Source: Candidatus Geothermarchaeales archaeon
Lineage (GTDB): Archaea > Thermoproteota > Nitrososphaeria > Geothermarchaeales > JAUWBL01
NCBI GenBank assembly: GCA_046757245.1
Contig: JBHHXX010000009.1
Span: forward strand, 1 to 24,000
Reading direction: 5' to 3'
Length of the DNA stretch: 24,000 nt
A model generated the notes under the pieces. That model did no database searches. It was given only the letters and a program-made list of their open reading frames with translations, and was not told the DNA's origin. Position 1 is the stretch's first letter. Each line of letters starts with the position of its first letter. Shown piece after piece: positions 18,897-24,000 of this stretch. Position numbers and translations under genes: made by a program.

Positions 18897-19391
18897 TTGT
18901 TTGAATACTTTCACCGTTCTCTCCCACATGATTTAACAAGGGATAACTATCCTCTTCAATCTAATGGGGGGTGGGTAGTGGGTGGTATGTTATTAAAACT
19001 GTTTTATAACAGTGAGGTTGAGCCCTACAACTCGGATTTGACGACCATTTTAACCTTGATGAGGGAGGTGGATGAGAGGGGCGTCCCATGTGAGAGCATA
19101 GACACGAAGAACCTAGCCAAAAGCGAGTTGTTCAAGTATTATCTTCACGCGTGTACACCCTCAATCCATAAAAGGTATAAGATCCGAAGGATCTTTGGCA
19201 CGAGGAGGCAGAGCGGCATATTCTTTGGAAAAGAGCAGCCGGCCCTAATCGTGTACAAAAAGAGTAATAGGATACCCGACGACGTCTTCCCCCACGAGGC
19301 GTGTGGCCAAGTCAGGGGGATAGCGGATTTTCTAAGGAGGCTATTATTCGAGATAGGGGAAGGGAAGAAAATCCCGTTAGCCGAGGTTTAG
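18897..19391 (+). CDS. Hypothetical protein; first gene of a tight three-gene operon
   Basis: It is an intact ORF with coding-like composition. The track start is TTG. The ATG at 18987 (MLLKLFYNSE..) is preceded by a purine-rich GGGGGTGGGTAGTGGGTGG and is more plausible, giving 134 aa. I recognise no motif. The alternating beta/alpha propensity is loosely thioredoxin-fold-like, but there is no CxxC. Confidence 0.5.
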   Translation: MFEYFHRSLPHDLTRDNYPLQSNGGWVVGGMLLKLFYNSEVEPYNSDLTTILTLMREVDERGVPCESIDTKNLAKSELFKYYLHACTPSIHKRYKIRRIFGTRRQSGIFFGKEQPALIVYKKSNRIPDDVFPHEACGQVRGIADFLRRLLFEIGEGKKIPLAEV

Positions 19392-19395
19392 GGAG

Positions 19396-19878
19396 ATGAG
19401 TGAGGTGGAACTGAGGATAAAAGTTAACGGCCACGAAGTTGAGGTTAAGGGAAGCAGGGAAGACGTCATAGAGCTTCTTGAGAAAACCATGGAGTATGTC
19501 TCTCAGTTCAGGAGTTGGACGGCGCCCTCGATGAGAGAGACCCCGCCGGGAATGGGTGAGGTGAAGGGGGAGGAAAGGGTCTTGGGGGAGGAGTTGGCTG
19601 ACCTACCTCCCCCCATAGGGATAAGCCCCAAGGACTCAACCGCCACGATACTGCAAAAGTTGTTCTCATCGCCCTGGGCTTCGAGGCCCCGAGCCCTCAA
19701 GGAGGTTCTCGGAGCCCTCTCATCCCTCGGGCTTCACTACCCTAAGTCCACAGTTGCGGTCAACCTCACCCGGCTCGTCAAGAGAAACATCATAAGGAGA
19801 ATGAAGTCTAAGGAGAACGTATACCTGTATATACCAACGATTCCGCCAAGGGCGAGGGAATTGGAGCAAGAGTCGTGA
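19396..19878 (+). CDS. Small wHTH protein, family member P1 (N-terminal beta-rich module, Pro/Gly/Glu-rich linker, C-terminal winged helix)
   Basis: The N-terminus is VELRIKVNGHEVEVKGSREDVIELLEK. The C-terminus LFSSPWASRPRALKEVLGALSSLGLHYPKSTVAVNLTRLVKRNIIRR aligns with the 21253-21681 product (LWREGWFSEPRPLSEVCEELARRGYHYDRSAVSHALLDLTKEGVLSR). It starts 4 nt after the upstream gene. Confidence 0.6.
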   Translation: MSEVELRIKVNGHEVEVKGSREDVIELLEKTMEYVSQFRSWTAPSMRETPPGMGEVKGEERVLGEELADLPPPIGISPKDSTATILQKLFSSPWASRPRALKEVLGALSSLGLHYPKSTVAVNLTRLVKRNIIRRMKSKENVYLYIPTIPPRARELEQES

Positions 19879-19891
19879 GAGGCTGTGCGAG

Positions 19892-20407
19892 ATGAGCGTA
19901 AGTGAGATTTACGTGAGGATTGATTGGGAGGGAAATACACTCGAATTCAGAGGGGACCCCGAGAAGGTTGTGCGGGAGGTCGAGAGCTTCCTAATGAAAA
20001 CGATCCCCCAAATATCTTTGGCGAGGAAGATTCAAATCTCCATCGACGCCCAAGATCTAACCGACATAATTTCGCCTCTAGTGAGGGTGACGCCCACGGG
20101 CGAGGTCGTACTTCTGGTGGCCCACGATAAGGCGTCCCTCAGCGAAAGGGTCTTGATCTTTCTCATGGCCCAGAAGTTCCTCTTTTTGACGGGGATGTCC
20201 CGAGAAGACCATTTATCCCTTCAAGCCATAGCGTCCAAGGTTATAGCCTCCCAAAAGTCCACCTCATCTAGGCTCAGCGAACTCTACACCCGGGGTTTCA
20301 TCGAGAAGAAGAGGATTGACGGACAGATTCGATACTGGGTCACGGTTCAAGGTATCCTAGACTTCAAGCAGAGGAAGCTCCCCAAACTCCTCAAAAAGAT
20401 AGCCTAG
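19892..20407 (+). CDS. Small wHTH protein, family member P2 (same N-terminal module, MarR-like C-terminal winged helix)
   Basis: The N-terminus EIYVRIDWEGNTLEFRGDPEKVVREVESFL is parallel to P1 and P3. The C-terminus LSLQAIASKVIASQKSTSSRLSELYTRGFIEKKRIDGQIRYWVTVQG is a typical wHTH recognition helix plus wing. Confidence 0.6.
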   Translation: MSVSEIYVRIDWEGNTLEFRGDPEKVVREVESFLMKTIPQISLARKIQISIDAQDLTDIISPLVRVTPTGEVVLLVAHDKASLSERVLIFLMAQKFLFLTGMSREDHLSLQAIASKVIASQKSTSSRLSELYTRGFIEKKRIDGQIRYWVTVQGILDFKQRKLPKLLKKIA

Positions 20408-20549
20408 GCTCTTCGGCACCTTGAGCATCAAGGGGGGCGCGGTTAAGCAATAGGCCCATGGCGCATATAGCTCTCCTACGCAATGCGTCTGTGGCGGCTC
20501 AAACCCCGGGACTCTGTTGTAGAGCGTCTCTACTCGTTTTATCGGGTTC

Positions 20550-20594
20550 AATGGAGATAAAATCTCCATTTCGCTCGACGTTCTGGGGGTCGAG
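20550..20594. terminator. Two adjacent hairpins in the convergent gap between P2 and padR
   Basis: The first hairpin is AATGGAGAT-AAA-ATCTCCATT: a 9-bp perfect stem at 20550-20570, followed by a T-run in TTTCG on the plus strand. The second is CTCGAC-N9-GTCGAG at 20574-20594. The location suits bidirectional termination. Archaeal terminators usually depend on T-tracts, so function is uncertain. Confidence 0.3.
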
Positions 20595-20605
20595 AAGAGG
20601 TTTGA

Positions 20606-20959
20606 CTAGTGTTCCTTCAGCGCTCCTCTTTGAATCTTCGAGAGAGCCTTCAATAATATTTCCAAGGTTTCTGAACCCTTTTCGGTTAATAGATAGATCT
20701 TCTTCCGCTTCTTCTTTTTGACGTAGATTGATTGGCTTTTTATCAGCTCCTCCTTCTCTAGCGCATTTAGGCGGGGGTAAAGTGTGCCAGGGCTGATGAA
20801 CACTTGATGGCGTTCATAGATTTCTGTGATGATCCTATAGCCGTGCATGGGCTCCTCTTTGAGTAGACATAAAATGTGTATGTCCAAGAAGCTTTTGATG
20901 TATCTTTCTCGTATGGCGTTTGCGTATAAATTGAGAGTCGTATTATAACGGTATGTCAT
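20606..20959 (-). CDS. PadR-family transcriptional regulator
   Basis: LDIHILCLLKEEPMHGYRIITEIYERHQVFISPGTLYPRLNALEKEELIKS....KKIYLLTEKG is the canonical PadR wHTH signature (..GY.l......s.GtlYp.L..Le..G.i). Confidence 0.85.
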   Translation of the reverse strand: MTYRYNTTLNLYANAIRERYIKSFLDIHILCLLKEEPMHGYRIITEIYERHQVFISPGTLYPRLNALEKEELIKSQSIYVKKKKRKKIYLLTEKGSETLEILLKALSKIQRGALKEH

Positions 20960-21252
20960 TTGAACTAGAATCTCCCAAAAACCGTTATATTGAAACTTAT
21001 TTATTTAAATATTTGTGGAAAAGCCGATTTAATTAATATCGAAGTCAAATCGAGATATTTTCATAAAAATATTTATAAATCCGATTAAAACTAAAATCGT
21101 ATTTAGAAGATTTAGCCAGTTTAGGGCTATAGGTAAGGGACCTGAGGTCAACCAAAACATTAGTATGGAGAGCGGATCTCAGTGTGGCCCCTCAATTATT
21201 CACTTTAACGCTTTGAGGACACGTGCATAGGTCTTCATCTAGTTTTAAAAGC

Positions 21253-21681
21253 CTACTCGTGAAGACCCCGGCTGACGTTGGAGATCTCAACCTTTCTCGG
21301 AGTCTTCTGGACGTAACGATATTTCCTGGTCTTCCCCTGCCTACTCAAAACCCCCTCCTTGGTGAGGTCGAGTAGCGCGTGGGAGACGGCGCTCCTATCA
21401 TAGTGATAGCCCCTTCGGGCCAGTTCTTCACAGACTTCACTCAGGGGCCTCGGCTCAGAGAACCACCCCTCCCTCCAAAGATCCTCGATCACCTCTCTAC
21501 ACGTCGTGGGCGCTGACTCAGGGGTCTTCAGAGCCTTGATGCCCTCGATTACTTCTCGACCGCCCCTCATTCCTTTTAGTACGTCTTGGACGACTCTCTC
21601 CACCTGGGACTCCTCGCACTCAAGCTCCACCTCGACGCCCGCCATCTTCAGCTTTATCCTCACTGTTTTCTCCCCATTCAT
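21253..21681 (-). CDS. Small wHTH protein, family member P3; divergent from nurA
   Basis: The N-terminus TVRIKLKMAGVEVELECEESQVERVVQDVL matches the P1/P2 module. The C-terminal wHTH is homologous to P1 (see above). Confidence 0.6.
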   Translation of the reverse strand: MNGEKTVRIKLKMAGVEVELECEESQVERVVQDVLKGMRGGREVIEGIKALKTPESAPTTCREVIEDLWREGWFSEPRPLSEVCEELARRGYHYDRSAVSHALLDLTKEGVLSRQGKTRKYRYVQKTPRKVEISNVSRGLHE

Positions 21682-21703
21682 TTTTCATCTACCATGAGTT
21701 TTC

Positions 21704-21736
21704 TTGAACATATTGAACAACAGCAATTCTTAAATA
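21704..21736 (+). promoter_or_regulatory. Candidate nurA promoter/operator: tandem TTGAACA repeats plus a TATA-like box
   Basis: TTGAACA occurs at 21704-21710 and 21713-21719, with a 9-nt period. TTAAATA at 21730-21736 is centred ~24 nt upstream of the nurA ATG (21757), which is consistent with a leaderless archaeal transcript. Confidence 0.3.
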
Positions 21737-21756
21737 CATCCTATAATTAAATATTC

Positions 21757-22845
21757 ATGAACAAAATGATCAATAACACTATAAAAGTCTTTCGGAGGGA
21801 GGGGAAACCATTCAACAGCGACGTTCTAGAAAACATACCTCCAATAAAGAAGTTGGCCCAAACGGCAGAGTGGTTAGAGGGGGAATTGCTCATACCCCGC
21901 ACAACGATTTCAACATACTCCATTAGACCCCTCCTAACCCAAGGCCTCAAGGCGAATGGGGGCGATGCCAAGGTAACCAGGCTCAAGAGGCTTCCAGTCA
22001 GGAGGGAAGTCATAGGCATCGACTCCACCTCCATTCCCCTAGCTGAGAGTAGGAAGGGCATCCTCTTGGCCGCGAGGGCGACCCTGATCAGAAGGACGAT
22101 GAGGGGCTATGGGGTGGAGAGGATCGGACCCATCCTAGCCTACATCACTAATGAAACCTTGGCCGAGCTTAGGCATGAATTGATAGCTTCCTGGAGGATC
22201 ATACGTTTGGCCACGGTGGATCCTTGGTACTCAAAACAGATCGTTATGACCATTCTGGAGAAATGGCTCCTCTGGAGGGCGGCTTCAACGTCTAGTGACG
22301 CGATAATCTTGGTGGATGGTTCTCTGAGGCCCTCCGTCATCAAGCTGAGGAACTACACGATTCAAAGGATAATGGCGGAGGCGGAAGATAGGGGAAACAC
22401 CGTCATAGGGGTTTCAAAGAGGTCGAAGCTCTTCAGGTGGTGTCCAGAAAAGCTTTTGAAGCTAGTGGAGGAGCGACCTCCAGCGGTGGTGGAGGTACCA
22501 GAGGCGAAGAGATACTTGAAAAACGTCTTAGGCACCGTTTTTTTCACCCTCTTCTCCCGAGATGGGGCACCCCTCAGAACGGATGTACCGGAATATGGGG
22601 GGGAACCTCTACAGAAACTTGAGGAACTCTACTCCAACGATCTGTTCCAATCAGGCTATCCGGAGACCCTGAGACAGGCCCACGTCTTCTCCAAGCTTTC
22701 AAGGACCGAGAGGATCGGTCTGAGGCTGAACCTCAGACTTTTTAAGGCGAGACTATTGCCCTCGGAGAGGAATAGAGACGTCCTCTTTGGGGGCTTTTCT
22801 AGGGCTTCTGGGGAGTGGGGAGTGGGGGATGCGAATCTACGGTAA
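21757..22845 (+). CDS. nurA: NurA-domain 5'-3' nuclease
   Basis: NurA-type motifs appear in the expected order: VIGIDSTS (first catalytic Asp), ILVDGSL, VIGVSKRSK, and C-terminal SGYPETLRQAHVFSKL. Length is 362 aa. It is immediately followed and overlapped by a HerA-type ATPase gene. Confidence 0.7.
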   Translation: MNKMINNTIKVFRREGKPFNSDVLENIPPIKKLAQTAEWLEGELLIPRTTISTYSIRPLLTQGLKANGGDAKVTRLKRLPVRREVIGIDSTSIPLAESRKGILLAARATLIRRTMRGYGVERIGPILAYITNETLAELRHELIASWRIIRLATVDPWYSKQIVMTILEKWLLWRAASTSSDAIILVDGSLRPSVIKLRNYTIQRIMAEAEDRGNTVIGVSKRSKLFRWCPEKLLKLVEERPPAVVEVPEAKRYLKNVLGTVFFTLFSRDGAPLRTDVPEYGGEPLQKLEELYSNDLFQSGYPETLRQAHVFSKLSRTERIGLRLNLRLFKARLLPSERNRDVLFGGFSRASGEWGVGDANLR

Positions 22846-24000
22846 GGATGGATCAACCTTCAAGATCATAGCCTTCCCCCACGAGAGGGTCTACAAGGGT
22901 GACTATCTCCTCCTAGAGGATAAGGGGAACAACGTCTCCATCCTCGCCCAAGTTGTTGATGTAGGCTACGTGGAGACACCTGGACTCCTCGAGGAGCTCA
23001 TCAGGGAGGGCTTATTCAATGAAAACAATCAGGACATCGACCCATACAACGTCAGCGACACCACAAAGTTCCTAAGGGACACGAAACAGCTCCTATGCGT
23101 CGCACGAGGGCTAATAAACAACGGGGAGCTCTCGACAAGGATCTACGACCTACCCTCCAGGGCTGAGTCAACGATAAGGAGGGTGCCAACCTCGAGGGTT
23201 ATCGAGATGGCCACCCCGATCCGAGGAAGGAAGATTTGGTTGGGAACGGATAGGGATAAACTGAGAATAATGTTGAACGCTGAAGCCTTAGACGGCTCGC
23301 TAACCCTCATAACGGGTATGAAGGGGTCAGGGAAGTCTCATCTGGCCAAGCTCTTCCTCCTCGAGCTCTTGGAGGAGGGTGCACCCTTATTGGTCTTCGA
23401 CCTGAACGGGGAGTATGTATGCCTCGACACGGCTTTAGACGGTAAACCCACTGAAAACCGAGGGAAAATAGAGGTTTACTATCCCGGGGGAAACCTCTTC
23501 TTCACCCTGGATTATCTGGGGCTTGAATCGGTGTCAAAGGTTCTCACCAAGGTGTTGGGGCTCCCTGGCGTTTCAGCCGCCGTCTTCAACGAGATTTGGC
23601 CCCTGGCGCAGAATCTGGGCTCAGTCTCCCCTAGGCTCCTACTGGAAGTGGTGAATAGATCCGTGACGAACATGATGGTCAAGGACGCCCTCACCTCGAG
23701 GTTGATGACCCTGAGGAGCTGTGAGTTCATCACGGACGACGAGAGAAAGCTGGTACGGGTGGAGGACTTTATACGCCCTGGGGGATCGGCCTCGATCATC
23801 GTTCTGAGGGATATCCCGATCACATCGAGGAAGATATTGGTGGAGATGATTCTGAGCAAGTTGGTCTCGCTCCTCGAGTTGAACGAGTTGCCACCCCTCT
23901 TCCTCCTAGCCGAGGAGGCACACCTCTATGTTAGGCAGACCTACTGGGAGGATATAGTTACACGTATGAGGCACTTCGGCCTCTTCGTTGTGTTTATCAC
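22829..24000 (+). CDS. herA: HerA-like (DUF87, FtsK/HerA superfamily) ATPase. It is open to the right window edge and is NOT in the supplied ORF track.
   Basis: I translated it by hand from the ATG at 22829 in frame 2, and there is no stop through 24000 (390 codons). The N-terminal HAS-barrel-like region is MRIYGKDGSTFKIIAFPHERVYKGDYLLLEDKGNNVSILAQVVDVGY. Walker A is GMKGSGKS (23315-23338). The HerA-type Walker B is LFLLAEEAH (23897-23923). It overlaps the nurA stop by 17 nt. Confidence 0.8.
   Translation, partial: MRIYGKDGSTFKIIAFPHERVYKGDYLLLEDKGNNVSILAQVVDVGYVETPGLLEELIREGLFNENNQDIDPYNVSDTTKFLRDTKQLLCVARGLINNGELSTRIYDLPSRAESTIRRVPTSRVIEMATPIRGRKIWLGTDRDKLRIMLNAEALDGSLTLITGMKGSGKSHLAKLFLLELLEEGAPLLVFDLNGEYVCLDTALDGKPTENRGKIEVYYPGGNLFFTLDYLGLESVSKVLTKVLGLPGVSAAVFNEIWPLAQNLGSVSPRLLLEVVNRSVTNMMVKDALTSRLMTLRSCEFITDDERKLVRVEDFIRPGGSASIIVLRDIPITSRKILVEMILSKLVSLLELNELPPLFLLAEEAHLYVRQTYWEDIVTRMRHFGLFVVFI

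What the first reader, a model, noticed from the sequence alone, without database searches (positions are those of the whole stretch)
21253..24000. Stand-alone, translationally overlapped nurA-herA module with its own divergent wHTH gene, and a herA ORF missing from the track
A 390-codon open frame (22829 to beyond 24000) encodes a HerA-type ATPase with a HAS-barrel, Walker A GMKGSGKS and Walker B AEEAH. It overlaps by 17 nt the stop of a NurA-motif nuclease, which suggests translational coupling.

In archaea where it has been characterised, the DNA-end-resection machinery is encoded as a herA-mre11-rad50-nurA cluster. Here the order is nurA then herA. No mre11 or rad50 lies upstream or between them.

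The neighbourhood is not housekeeping. It contains a PadR regulator, three paralogous small wHTH proteins and AT-rich spacers. HerA-family ATPases paired with a nuclease or other effector are an established architecture of anti-phage systems (SIR2-HerA, DUF4297-HerA). This pair could therefore be a second, non-repair or defence-type copy.

The divergent wHTH gene (P3) shares a 75-bp control region with nurA. That region contains tandem TTGAACA repeats.
Basis: partly seen in the sequence, partly recalled or inferred. Interest (0 to 1): 0.7.

Follow-up and report, generated by a model that had tools for sequence, protein, structure and literature searches.

The report
Core archaeal NurA-HerA with wHTH trio
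This is the lineage's own inherited DNA-end-processing nuclease and motor pair (NurA-HerA), not an anti-phage system, but in three archaeal lineages it sits beside an unannotated trio of small DNA-binding proteins and a conserved operator that nobody seems to have described.

Summary
nurA (21757-22845) passes Pfam's NurA threshold. herA starts at 22829, overlaps nurA by 17 nt and runs off the window. It is 483 aa on the extended contig.

No mre11 or rad50 lies in the window, in the 6.6 kb after herA, or within ±10 kb in 84 related loci.

The defence or "second copy" reading is not supported. This HerA family was confirmed at 529 places in species-representative genomes of Geothermarchaeota, Nitrososphaeria and Bathyarchaeia. 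It occurs once per genome in the 80 loci kept. Its tree follows taxonomy. It often sits in gatD-gatE synteny. It is absent from 2.9 million viral contigs. Its best solved relatives are the Sulfolobus repair HerA and NurA.

What is new is the company it keeps. The divergent wHTH gene (21253-21681) lies directly upstream of nurA in 64 of 81 loci. Its two paralogues (19396-19878, 19892-20407) are conserved partners. None has a curated family covering the whole protein. The TTGAACA repeats belong to a conserved TTGNNCA-N2-TTGNNCA operator that brackets the nurA TATA box.

Most likely this is a housekeeping resection machine with a dedicated wHTH control circuit. Still untested: genome-wide herA/nurA and mre11/rad50 copy number, and whether the trio binds the operator or touches the enzymes.

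The parts
19396..19878 (+). wHTH-A paralogue (160 aa). N-terminal beta-hairpin plus helix domain, linker, C-terminal BlaI-like winged helix.
   Evidence: Pfam Penicillinase_R 25.2 bits against a cut-off of 22.6, covering the wHTH part only. hhalign against the C family gives 99.2% probability. Orthologues lie next to nurA-herA in 25 or more loci.
19892..20407 (+). wHTH-B paralogue (171 aa), with the same two-domain plan.
   Evidence: hhalign against the C family gives 95.6% probability, E 1e-8. Orthologues, often duplicated, lie in the same block in about 45 loci.
21253..21681 (-). wHTH-C (142 aa), transcribed divergently from nurA. It is the most conserved of the three paralogues.
   Evidence: It lies directly upstream of nurA in 64 of 81 loci. 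It is 37-57% identical across three lineages. The AF2 model has a beta-hairpin at 6-23, a helix at 24-49, and a wHTH at 61-125 with pLDDT above 90 for residues 61-110. Foldseek finds BlaI, Fur, MecI and PadR wHTHs. All 223 homologues found carry no Pfam domain, and every source name given is 'hypothetical protein'.
21704..21719 (.). Operator site 1: TTGAACA-TA-TTGAACA, between the two divergent promoters and upstream of the nurA TATA box.
   Evidence: Exact pattern match. TTGNNCA occurs 111 times in 64 orthologous spacers against 6.2±2.3 in shuffles, with a dominant 9-bp spacing. The exact tandem pattern is found in 47 of 87 loci, almost only in this spacer.
21730..21736 (+). Candidate TATA box of nurA-herA (TTAAATA). 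It ends 20 nt before the nurA ATG, which implies a leaderless or near-leaderless mRNA (inference).
   Evidence: TTTAAAT/TTTATAT is conserved at the same place in the TATA-anchored comparison of the orthologous spacers.
21757..21773 (.). Operator site 2: (A)TGAACA-AA-ATGATCA, lying over the nurA start codon. It is the second copy of a 25-nt direct repeat spaced 53 bp from the first.
   Evidence: Repeat D1, 21701-21725 and 21754-21778, 76% identical. Exact pattern match on the minus strand at 21758-21773. In Bathyarchaeia, TTGATTGAACAAT lies at the same place but is read in a different frame, so the conservation is at the DNA level.
21757..22845 (+). nurA (362 aa). RNase-H-like NurA nuclease with candidate catalytic D89 (22021-22023), E168, D187 (22315-22317) and H309 (22681-22683).
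   Evidence: Pfam PF09376 at 37.2 bits. These residues are invariant in 18 homologues. The family profile's only significant hit in the PDB is S. solfataricus NurA 2YGK, E 0.002. The AF2 model has pLDDT 81. Foldseek finds TdpB, Sso, Tko, Dra and Pfu NurA.
22810..22828 (+). Purine-rich, Shine-Dalgarno-like GGGGAGT repeats inside the nurA 3' end, just before the herA ATG.
   Evidence: Read directly from the sequence. The function is inferred.
22829..24000 (+). herA, first 390 of 483 codons. N-terminal barrel region, Walker A at 23315-23338, Walker B at 23897-23923.
   Evidence: Open frame. PF01935 at 50.9 bits. Full length is 483 aa on contig L001. The family profile aligns over its full length to S. 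solfataricus HerA 4D2I, 61 bits, E 6e-16. The gap from the nurA stop to the herA start is -26 to +29 nt in 81 loci.

Best explanation
**What it is.** The pair is the vertically inherited, housekeeping NurA-HerA DNA-end-processing machine of a clade of Thermoproteota: Geothermarchaeota, Nitrososphaeria and Bathyarchaeia.

**How the enzymes work (by analogy, not shown here).** In the solved Sulfolobus, Thermococcus and Deinococcus complexes, a HerA hexamer uses ATP to push duplex DNA into a NurA dimer. The dimer separates and digests the strands. The same is assumed here.

**How it is expressed.** The two genes are made from one short-leader or leaderless mRNA. herA translation is coupled to the end of nurA. 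In this clade the pair is not linked to mre11-rad50.

**What accompanies it.** The pair belongs to a conserved module with three or four paralogous small proteins. Each has an N-terminal beta-hairpin-helix domain and a C-terminal BlaI-like winged helix.

**Proposed control (inferred).** The divergently transcribed wHTH-C, possibly with A and B, binds tandem TTGNNCA sites. These sites lie between the two divergent promoters and over the nurA start, so they bracket the nurA TATA box. Binding would repress or gate nurA-herA and the regulator's own gene.

**Shown:** gene identities, folds, conservation of the catalytic residues, synteny, and operator conservation.

**Inferred:** who binds the operator, the sign of regulation, the signal (DNA damage is the obvious candidate), and the in vivo role.
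For: **Identity of the enzymes**
- Pfam NurA and DUF87 hits are above threshold.
- NurA residues D89, E168, D187 and H309 and the YPETLR-AH motif are invariant.
- The NurA model matches solved NurA structures.
- The HerA profile's best and only full-length PDB match is the Sulfolobus repair HerA. Defence HerAs match only in the C-terminal ATPase part.

**Core-gene behaviour**
- HerA relatives were confirmed at 529 places in species-representative genomes. The 80 loci kept come from 80 different assemblies.
- The HerA neighbour-joining tree splits into Geothermarchaeota-like, Nitrososphaeria and Bathyarchaeia clades with no mixing.
- gatD-gatE lies upstream of the module in about 28 loci across all three lineages, adjacent to the wHTH block in most. 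PolB and CDP-alcohol transferase lie downstream in Geothermarchaeota.
- The flanks are housekeeping genes.
- No relatives were found in IMG/VR viral contigs.
- Genome papers on Thaumarchaeota already list a 'HerA-NurA pair' as homologous-recombination genes beside unlinked Mre11 and Rad50 (PMC5797428).

**Coupling**
- The gap from the nurA stop to the herA start is within -17 to +10 nt in 72 of 81 loci.

**The wHTH module**
- wHTH-C is directly upstream of nurA in 64 of 81 loci.
- In 9 more loci a same-strand paralogue takes that place. Seven loci are cut by the contig end. One has none detected.
- The three proteins are true paralogues.

**The operator**
- TTGNNCA is enriched about 18-fold in the spacers, with 9-bp phasing.
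- The exact tandem pattern is nearly unique to the spacer within each 15-21 kb locus.
- A second copy lies over the nurA start and is read in different frames in different lineages.
- One subclade changes both the start of the predicted recognition helix (GYHYDRTAVAH to GYNYDRSAISH) and the operator half-site.
Against: - No experiment or multimer model links wHTH-C to the operator or to the enzymes.
- One autoregulator would be enough for transcriptional control, so keeping three or four orthologous paralogue groups is not explained.
- The pair is very divergent from characterised NurA-HerA. Single-sequence phmmer finds no solved NurA, and HerA scores only 33 bits to Sso HerA. Functional equivalence is therefore an extrapolation.
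- The best structural match of the NurA model is TdpB, from a defence system, marginally ahead of Sso NurA.
- Whether these genomes also carry a canonical herA/nurA, or any mre11/rad50, could not be checked genome-wide.
Confidence: 0.6

Rival explanations
1. The wHTH trio are not, or not only, transcription factors. They are physical accessory subunits or DNA adaptors of the HerA-NurA machine. For example, a hetero-oligomer could recognise DNA ends or load the ring, taking the place that Mre11-Rad50 has in the thermophile operon.
For: - Three or four orthologous paralogue groups are kept together with the enzymes across lineages.
- wHTH-C (about 43% identity between this window and Bathyarchaeia) is conserved as well as HerA and much better than NurA (about 25-30%).
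- The C-type wHTH is fused, through a coiled coil, to HerA/FtsK-like DUF87 ATPases that lack the HerA N-terminal barrel, in other proteins (P0316, P0331).
- The N-terminal beta-hairpin-helix domain matches no known fold and looks like an oligomerisation element.
Against: - The wHTH is of the ordinary repressor type (BlaI, MecI, Fur, PadR).
- A conserved sequence-specific operator sits exactly at the shared promoter. A transcription factor explains that best.
- The fusion proteins lie in virus- or mobile-element-like regions and may reflect an unrelated use of the domain.
- No interaction data exist.
Confidence: 0.2
2. One reading: a defence-type HerA-nuclease system with its own wHTH regulator, analogous to SIR2-HerA, DUF4297-HerA, TdpAB or CRISPR-associated HerA-NurA. 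It would degrade invading DNA.
For: - It is a stand-alone nuclease plus HerA pair with a divergent wHTH regulator, and it is unlinked from mre11/rad50.
- The NurA model's top Foldseek hit is TdpB of TdpAB, E 1.4e-9.
- There are weak PADLOC hits for HerA: mad8 at 34 bits and HerA models at about 22 bits.
Against: - It is present once each in the 80 species genomes kept, and its phylogeny is congruent with taxonomy.
- It has conserved housekeeping synteny with gatDE and PolB, and is not in variable islands.
- There is no effector, modification or cas gene next to it in any of the four contexts with Pfam-annotated genes.
- PADLOC finds nothing for NurA.
- HerA_antiphage scores 18.8 bits against a cut-off of 800.
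- The HerA profile scores 61 bits over its full length to repair HerA, against 25 bits to TdpA and 52 bits, over partial stretches only, to SIR2-HerA.
- None was found in 2.9 million viral contigs.
Confidence: 0.07
3. A housekeeping but non-repair role. A HerA/FtsK-type pump with its nuclease would act in chromosome segregation, replication-fork processing or nucleoid maintenance, and the wHTH proteins would be site-specific chromosome-binding partners.
For: - HerA belongs to the FtsK-HerA pump superfamily (established knowledge).
- The module lies 3-5 kb from the family-B DNA polymerase gene in Geothermarchaeota.
- Multiple DNA-binding paralogues are conserved with it.
Against: - The NurA catalytic residues are intact.
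- The closest solved relatives are end-resection complexes.
- The exact tandem pattern is essentially confined to the module's own promoter within each locus examined. It has not been looked for elsewhere in these genomes.
Confidence: 0.1

Closest known systems
Sulfolobus HerA-NurA end-resection complex (PDB 4D2I HerA, 2YGK NurA); also Thermococcus kodakarensis HerA-NurA (9X1L-9X1P)
   Same: - Both proteins have these as their closest solved relatives by family profile, and NurA also by fold.
- Walker A and B, the N-terminal barrel region, and the NurA D-E-D-H residues with the DGSL and GYPxxLxxAH motifs are shared.
- The presumed mechanism is the same: a hexameric pump feeding a dimeric nuclease.
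   Different: - Gene order is nurA then herA, as a two-gene unit. It is not embedded in herA-mre11-rad50-nurA.
- Sequence similarity is very low. A single-sequence search finds no solved NurA.
- A wHTH trio and an operator accompany the pair, which the literature searches here did not find reported for the thermophile operon.
Bacterial stand-alone NurA-HerA (Deinococcus radiodurans, PDB 7F6D; Thermus thermophilus)
   Same: - It is a stand-alone pair without adjacent mre11/rad50. That these bacterial pairs form a nurA-herA operon is from my own knowledge. Their existence and phenotypes are described in PMC7776575.
- NurA is a fold match.
   Different: - The bacterial HerA is not among the profile's PDB hits at E ≤ 0.01.
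- No wHTH trio is known there.
- The bacterial pairs are dispensable (PMC7776575).
Defence HerA-effector systems: SIR2-HerA (8J4U/8UAE), DUF4297-HerA, TdpAB (8WFD/8WET)
   Same: - A HerA-family ATPase is paired with a nuclease or other effector.
- TdpB is a NurA-fold protein and is the top Foldseek hit.
   Different: - Only the C-terminal ATPase part of HerA aligns to SIR2-HerA (52 bits). TdpA scores 25 bits.
- There is no SIR2, DUF4297 or phosphorothioation gene nearby.
- The distribution is that of a core gene, not a patchy island.
BlaI/MecI/CopY-type winged-helix repressors (Pfam Penicillinase_R, PF03965)
   Same: - The wHTH subtype is shared. wHTH-A passes the Pfam threshold and wHTH-C falls just below it.
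- BlaI is the top Foldseek hit for wHTH-C.
- The likely binding mode is the same: repeated half-sites at the protein's own promoter.
   Different: - Here the wHTH is C-terminal, behind a novel beta-hairpin-helix domain.
- There is no BlaR1-type sensor gene.
- The proteins occur as three or four paralogues.
- The target is a DNA-repair operon.

Membership tests
NurA nuclease (Pfam PF09376) | Match to the family model above the curated threshold | tested here: met
   37.2 bits against a cut-off of 21, covering residues 86-309 and profile positions 4-249 of 254.
NurA nuclease (Pfam PF09376) | RNase-H-like NurA fold | tested here: met
   The AF2 model has pLDDT 81 and pTM 0.79. Foldseek finds Sso NurA 2YGK (E 4.7e-8, TM by target 0.56), Tko, Dra and Pfu NurA, and TdpB.
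NurA nuclease (Pfam PF09376) | Metal-binding catalytic residues (D, E, D, H) | tested here: met
   D89, E168, D187 and H309 are invariant in 18 homologues. The DGSL and GYPETLRxAH motifs align to 2YGK. Assigning these residues as catalytic rests on published NurA structures (my own knowledge).
NurA nuclease (Pfam PF09376) | 5'-3' exo/endonuclease activity stimulated by HerA | not testable with these tools
   Needs biochemistry.
HerA helicase/translocase (HerA-FtsK superfamily, PF01935) | Central DUF87 ATPase domain with Walker A and Walker B | tested here: met
   PF01935 at 50.9 bits against a cut-off of 23.2. GMKGSGKS and LFLLAEEAH are invariant in the family alignment.
HerA helicase/translocase (HerA-FtsK superfamily, PF01935) | N-terminal HAS-barrel | tested here: inconclusive
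   The family profile aligns to Sso HerA 4D2I from chain residue 30 (query residue 42), so it covers most of the barrel region. No structure was predicted for HerA.
HerA helicase/translocase (HerA-FtsK superfamily, PF01935) | Hexamer that docks a NurA dimer | not testable with these tools
   No multimer prediction was available.
Thermophile herA-mre11-rad50-nurA operon | mre11 and rad50 adjacent to herA and nurA | tested here: not met
   None in the window. None in the 6.6 kb downstream. None in three distant contexts with Pfam-annotated genes. None by motif scan of ±10 kb in 84 loci. The large neighbouring ORFs checked are IleRS, RpoB, CPSase, PolB, NrdD and one with only a calcineurin-like phosphoesterase hit.
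Anti-phage HerA systems (SIR2-HerA, DUF4297-HerA) | Match to defence-specific HerA models and an adjacent SIR2 or DUF4297 effector | tested here: not met
   PADLOC HerA models score about 22 bits over 60 residues. NCBIfam HerA_antiphage scores 18.8 bits against a cut-off of 800. The partner gene is NurA, and no SIR2 or DUF4297 gene is nearby.
TdpAB(C) phosphorothioate-sensing defence | TdpA-type ATPase plus TdpB, with a linked DNA-phosphorothioation gene | tested here: not met
   TdpB is a fold match, but TdpA scores only 24.9 bits against 61 for repair HerA. No modification gene lies in the flanks.
CRISPR-associated HerA-NurA | Location next to cas genes or a CRISPR array | tested here: not met
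   No cas families are among the called neighbours in four contexts. Rfam finds nothing in the window.
BlaI/MecI/CopY repressors (PF03965) | N-terminal wHTH, C-terminal dimerisation helices, and a partner sensor-protease | tested here: not met
   Only the wHTH part matches: A at 25.2 bits and C at 21.3 bits against a cut-off of 22.6. The wHTH is C-terminal. There is no BlaR1-like gene.

The most novel reading that the evidence does not exclude
The three or four paralogous wHTH proteins form a hetero-oligomeric, sequence- or end-binding partner of HerA-NurA. That would define a previously unrecognised five-gene resection module, independent of linkage to Mre11-Rad50, in Bathyarchaeia, Nitrososphaeria and Geothermarchaeota. 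The wHTH proteins would both gate transcription and recruit or load the motor-nuclease on DNA.
Probability: 0.2. Interest if true: 0.75.

Novelty: new variant of a known kind. Interest (0 to 1): 0.5.

Why it matters
- **An open problem in archaeal repair.** How archaea control and target their double-strand-break machinery is poorly understood. No LexA-like circuit is known. In Sulfolobus, HerA-NurA is essential (PMC7776575), and its mechanistic link to Mre11-Rad50 is still not described in detail.
- **What this offers.** A dedicated family of DNA-binding proteins and a conserved operator are attached to nurA-herA across three large, mostly uncultured archaeal lineages. That gives a concrete, testable candidate for the control or recruitment layer.
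- **Annotation.** It would give a first functional context to a family that appears in databases only as 'hypothetical protein': 946 cluster representatives match the wHTH-C profile at E ≤ 0.001.
- **A caution for defence hunting.** A stand-alone HerA plus nuclease pair with a wHTH regulator is not, by architecture alone, a defence system.

Tried and rejected
**Searches that found nothing useful**
- Single-sequence PDB search with NurA gave only noise. A family profile was needed.
- A profile of wHTH-C against PDB sequences gave nothing significant. A TBPIP/Hop2 wHTH at E 0.41 is not evidence.
- Pfam and NCBIfam scans of 41 wHTH-C orthologues gave only weak generic wHTH hits.
- The bacterial sigma-70 and terminator scan of the region is uninformative for an archaeon.
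- tRNA and Rfam scans found nothing in the window.

**The defence reading, tested and rejected**
- PADLOC and the NCBIfam antiphage HerA model give no convincing match.
- The viral-contig scan found 126 pattern matches, none confirmed as a relative.

**The search for mre11/rad50**
- The motif scan of 84 loci found none. Six of the 26 ORFs of 700 aa or more were run against Pfam and are housekeeping or unrelated genes.

**Literature**
- Searches for the wHTH + NurA-HerA association and for Bathyarchaeota Mre11/Rad50/HerA found nothing specific.

**A lead set aside**
- The fusion proteins carrying a C-type wHTH looked like a 'Rosetta stone' for a physical interaction. Their contexts are virus- or mobile-element-like, so they are weak evidence.

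Full report
**1. Checking the observation**

- nurA is a 362-aa ORF at 21757-22845 (+). The divergent 142-aa ORF is at 21253-21681 (-).
- The frame starting at ATG 22829 is open for all 390 codons to the window end. It overlaps the nurA stop by 17 nt.
- Pfam assigns NurA (PF09376) at 37.2 bits against a cut-off of 21. It assigns the HerA central domain (PF01935) at 50.9 bits.
- The Walker A motif GMKGSGKS and the Walker B motif LFLLAEEAH are present.
- herA was 'missing from the track' only because it runs off the window end.
- An identical NurA is encoded on public contigs that extend further. There herA is 483 aa.
- After herA come a CDP-alcohol phosphatidyltransferase, an MBL-fold protein and PEP synthase. 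No mre11 or rad50 follows.
- Upstream lie adenine deaminase, CysRS, NUDIX and deoxyhypusine synthase. Further upstream are tRNA-splicing endonuclease, a CLC channel, GcvH and Lut-like genes.
- So the gene content described is correct, but the neighbourhood is housekeeping.

**2. Which organism, and how widespread**

- A HerA 100% identical to the contig copy is annotated in a 'Candidatus Geothermarchaeales archaeon' MAG.
- The HerA family is strongly conserved. More than 2,000 database clusters match, at 40-76% identity.
- A scan of one genome per GTDB species confirmed HerA relatives at 529 places.
- The best 80 loci come from 80 different assemblies of Geothermarchaeota, Nitrososphaeria and Bathyarchaeia. 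Six are complete Bathyarchaeota chromosomes.
- A neighbour-joining tree of the 84 HerA sequences separates three clades that follow the taxon labels.
  - All 64 Bathyarchaeia-labelled sequences fall in one clade.
  - The one 'bacterial' label sits inside that clade and is probably a mis-binned contig.
- No relative was found in 2.9 million viral contigs.

**3. Synteny**

I called ORFs in 84 loci and searched them with local HMMs.

- nurA lies directly upstream of herA in 81 loci.
- The distance from the nurA stop to the herA start runs from -26 to +29 nt. It is within -17 to +10 nt in 72 loci. Tight coupling is therefore conserved, although the exact 17-nt overlap is not.
- No Rad50- or Mre11-like ORF lies within ±10 kb of any locus. 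Of the six largest neighbours run against Pfam, five are IleRS, RpoB, CPSase, PolB and NrdD, and one has only a calcineurin-like phosphoesterase hit.
- gatD-gatE lies upstream of the module in about 28 loci from all three lineages, adjacent to the wHTH block in most.
- In Geothermarchaeota, a CDP-alcohol transferase and the family-B DNA polymerase follow downstream.
- This is the signature of an old, vertically inherited core locus, not of a defence island.

**4. The small wHTH proteins are part of the module**

- The divergent gene (here called wHTH-C) is directly upstream of nurA in 64 of 81 loci.
- In nine others a same-strand paralogue takes that position. Seven loci are cut by the contig end. 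One has none detected.
- The window's two other small proteins (wHTH-A at 19396-19878 and wHTH-B at 19892-20407) have orthologues in the same block. B is often duplicated.
- Profile-profile comparison shows that all three are paralogues over both domains. C vs A scores 99.2% probability and C vs B scores 95.6%.
- wHTH-C is 37-57% identical across the three lineages. That is as conserved as HerA and much more conserved than NurA, which is about 25-30% identical.
- No curated family covers the whole protein. Only the wHTH part touches Pfam Penicillinase_R, with A above and C just below the threshold.
- All 223 homologues found carry no Pfam domain, and every source name given is 'hypothetical protein'.
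- A profile search of 1.8 billion cluster representatives finds 946 relatives at E ≤ 0.001.
- The AF2 model of wHTH-C has three parts:
  - a beta-hairpin (6-23) and a long helix (24-49) at moderate confidence;
  - a disordered linker;
  - a wHTH (61-125), with pLDDT above 90 for residues 61-110.
- The wHTH matches BlaI, MecI, Fur and PadR-type repressors. The N-terminal part matches nothing.
- The PadR gene at 20606-20959 and the AT-rich spacer are an insertion specific to this genus. In the closest other genome examined (L003), the 3' ends of B and C overlap.

**5. The control region**

- The 75-bp spacer carries TTGAACA-TA-TTGAACA at 21704-21719. A TTAAATA box lies at 21730-21736.
- A second, 76%-identical copy of the 25-nt repeat lies 53 bp downstream, over the nurA start (21754-21778).
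- In 64 orthologous spacers, TTGNNCA occurs 111 times against 6.2±2.3 in shuffles. The dominant spacing is 9 bp.
  - The loci are related, so these counts are not independent events.
  - Even so, the motif persists while the surrounding sequence diverges.
- The exact tandem pattern is found in 47 of 87 loci, and almost only in this spacer.
- When the spacers are anchored on the conserved TATA box, a consistent layout appears:
  - repeats lie upstream, with an inverted TGNNCAA half-site abutting the box;
  - repeats lie downstream, over the start of nurA.
- The downstream TTGAACAAT is read in different reading frames in different lineages. The constraint is therefore on the DNA, not on the protein.
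- One Geothermarchaeota subclade has changed two things together:
  - the start of the predicted recognition helix (GYHYDRTAVAH to GYNYDRSAISH);
  - the half-sites (TTGAATA and TTCATGAA in place of TTGNNCA).
  - This is a single event, so it is only suggestive of protein-operator co-variation.
- From position alone I infer that a wHTH dimer or oligomer bound here would occlude both divergent promoters.
- The distance from the TATA box to the ATG (20 nt) implies a leaderless nurA-herA mRNA in this genome. This too is an inference.

**6. What kind of NurA-HerA this is**

- Single sequences are very remote from anything solved.
- Family profiles are more informative.
  - The HerA profile aligns over its full length to S. 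solfataricus HerA 4D2I (61 bits, E 6e-16).
  - Defence HerAs match only in the C-terminal ATPase part, and TdpA scores 25 bits.
  - The NurA profile's only significant hit is S. solfataricus NurA 2YGK, through the DGSL and GYPxxLxxAH motifs.
- The NurA model (pLDDT 81) matches TdpB, Sso NurA and the Thermococcus, Deinococcus and Pyrococcus NurA structures.
- D89, E168, D187 and H309 are invariant, so an active nuclease is expected.
- PADLOC finds nothing for NurA and only short P-loop-level matches for HerA.
- The NCBIfam antiphage HerA model scores 18.8 bits against a cut-off of 800.

**7. Interpretation**

- The most economical reading is that this is the clade's housekeeping DNA-end-processing pair.
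- Genome papers on Thaumarchaeota already list such a pair as homologous-recombination genes next to unlinked Mre11 and Rad50 (PMC5797428).
- The canonical four-gene operon is a feature of thermophilic archaea, and stand-alone pairs exist in bacteria (PMC7776575).
- The defence reading fails on distribution, synteny, model matches and the absence of partner genes.
- The literature searches found no description of the conserved wHTH trio or its operator.
- I favour a dedicated, probably autoregulatory, transcription circuit (confidence 0.6 for the overall picture).
- Keeping three or four paralogues is not explained by simple autoregulation.
- A C-type wHTH is also fused to HerA/FtsK-like ATPases in virus-like regions.
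- These two points leave room for a physical adaptor role (about 0.2).

**8. Limits**

- I could not scan whole genomes. Whether a second herA/nurA, or any mre11/rad50, exists elsewhere in these organisms is open.
- No multimer prediction or experiment links the wHTH proteins to the operator or to the enzymes.
- Promoter and transcription-start assignments are inferred from sequence only.

**9. Verdict**

- The defence or second-copy interpretation is not supported.
- The real finding is a conserved, undescribed wHTH-operator module attached to a divergent but orthodox NurA-HerA pair. It is a new variant of a known kind, of moderate interest.

Noticed in passing
P0316, P0331, P0347; loci L088 8001-9500, L090 1640-3079, L091 5684-7336: The C-type winged helix also occurs as the C-terminal domain of 480-550-aa proteins, behind a coiled coil. 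In P0316 and P0331 the N-terminal part is a DUF87/HerA-FtsK-like ATPase without the N-terminal barrel. P0347 has no Pfam hit. All three sit among small ORFans, HNH endonucleases and a DNA methylase, so the regions look like archaeal viruses or mobile elements. They may be packaging or transfer ATPases.
   Followed up: partly
window 20357-21252: A PadR gene (20606-20959, -), a 70-aa ORF (20357-20569, -) and a 290-bp AT-rich spacer are inserted between wHTH-B and wHTH-C. Among the loci examined, this is seen only in this genus (L001, L002). The spacer holds three copies of AAAnCCGATTnAA (21020, 21077 and inverted at 21094), a candidate PadR operator.
   Followed up: partly
window 18897-19391: An ORF of 134-164 aa directly upstream of wHTH-A has no Pfam, NCBIfam or PADLOC match. 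Among the 84 loci searched it has a counterpart only in the near-identical contig L001. In other genomes that position is occupied by gatE or glmS.
   Followed up: partly
L007, L008-L016, L018, L025, L055 and others, upstream of the wHTH block: gatD-gatE (Glu-tRNA-Gln amidotransferase) lies on the same strand upstream of the module in about 28 loci of three lineages, adjacent to the wHTH-A/B genes in most. In some loci the gap is only a few bases, so co-transcription is possible.
   Followed up: partly
L008-L017 (Geothermarchaeota subclade), wHTH-C to nurA spacers: This subclade has GYNYDRSAISH in place of GYHYDRTAVAH at the start of the predicted recognition helix. Its half-sites are TTGAATA and TTCATGAA in place of TTGNNCA. 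This may be protein-operator co-variation.
   Followed up: partly
L024 (DATKLC010000078.1): A contig labelled 'Candidatus Krumholzibacteriaceae bacterium' carries the archaeal nurA-herA pair. It nests inside the Bathyarchaeia HerA clade, so the contig is probably mis-binned.
   Followed up: partly
L005 7346-7462 (-) and 7535-7735: A 5S rRNA gene lies just upstream of the wHTH block. Next to it is a GC-rich stretch ending in ...CCCCGGCCCCACCA that looks like a tRNA, but ARAGORN does not call it.
   Followed up: partly
L005, L035, L052, L054, L075, L077, L081 (also L068, L071): A minority architecture lacks the divergent wHTH-C. All the paralogues (B, B', sometimes A) lie on the same strand as nurA, directly upstream of it. 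In L005 the A-nurA spacer is 208 bp and carries a hairpin (GTCGTTCAAGG...CCTTGAACGAC).
   Followed up: no
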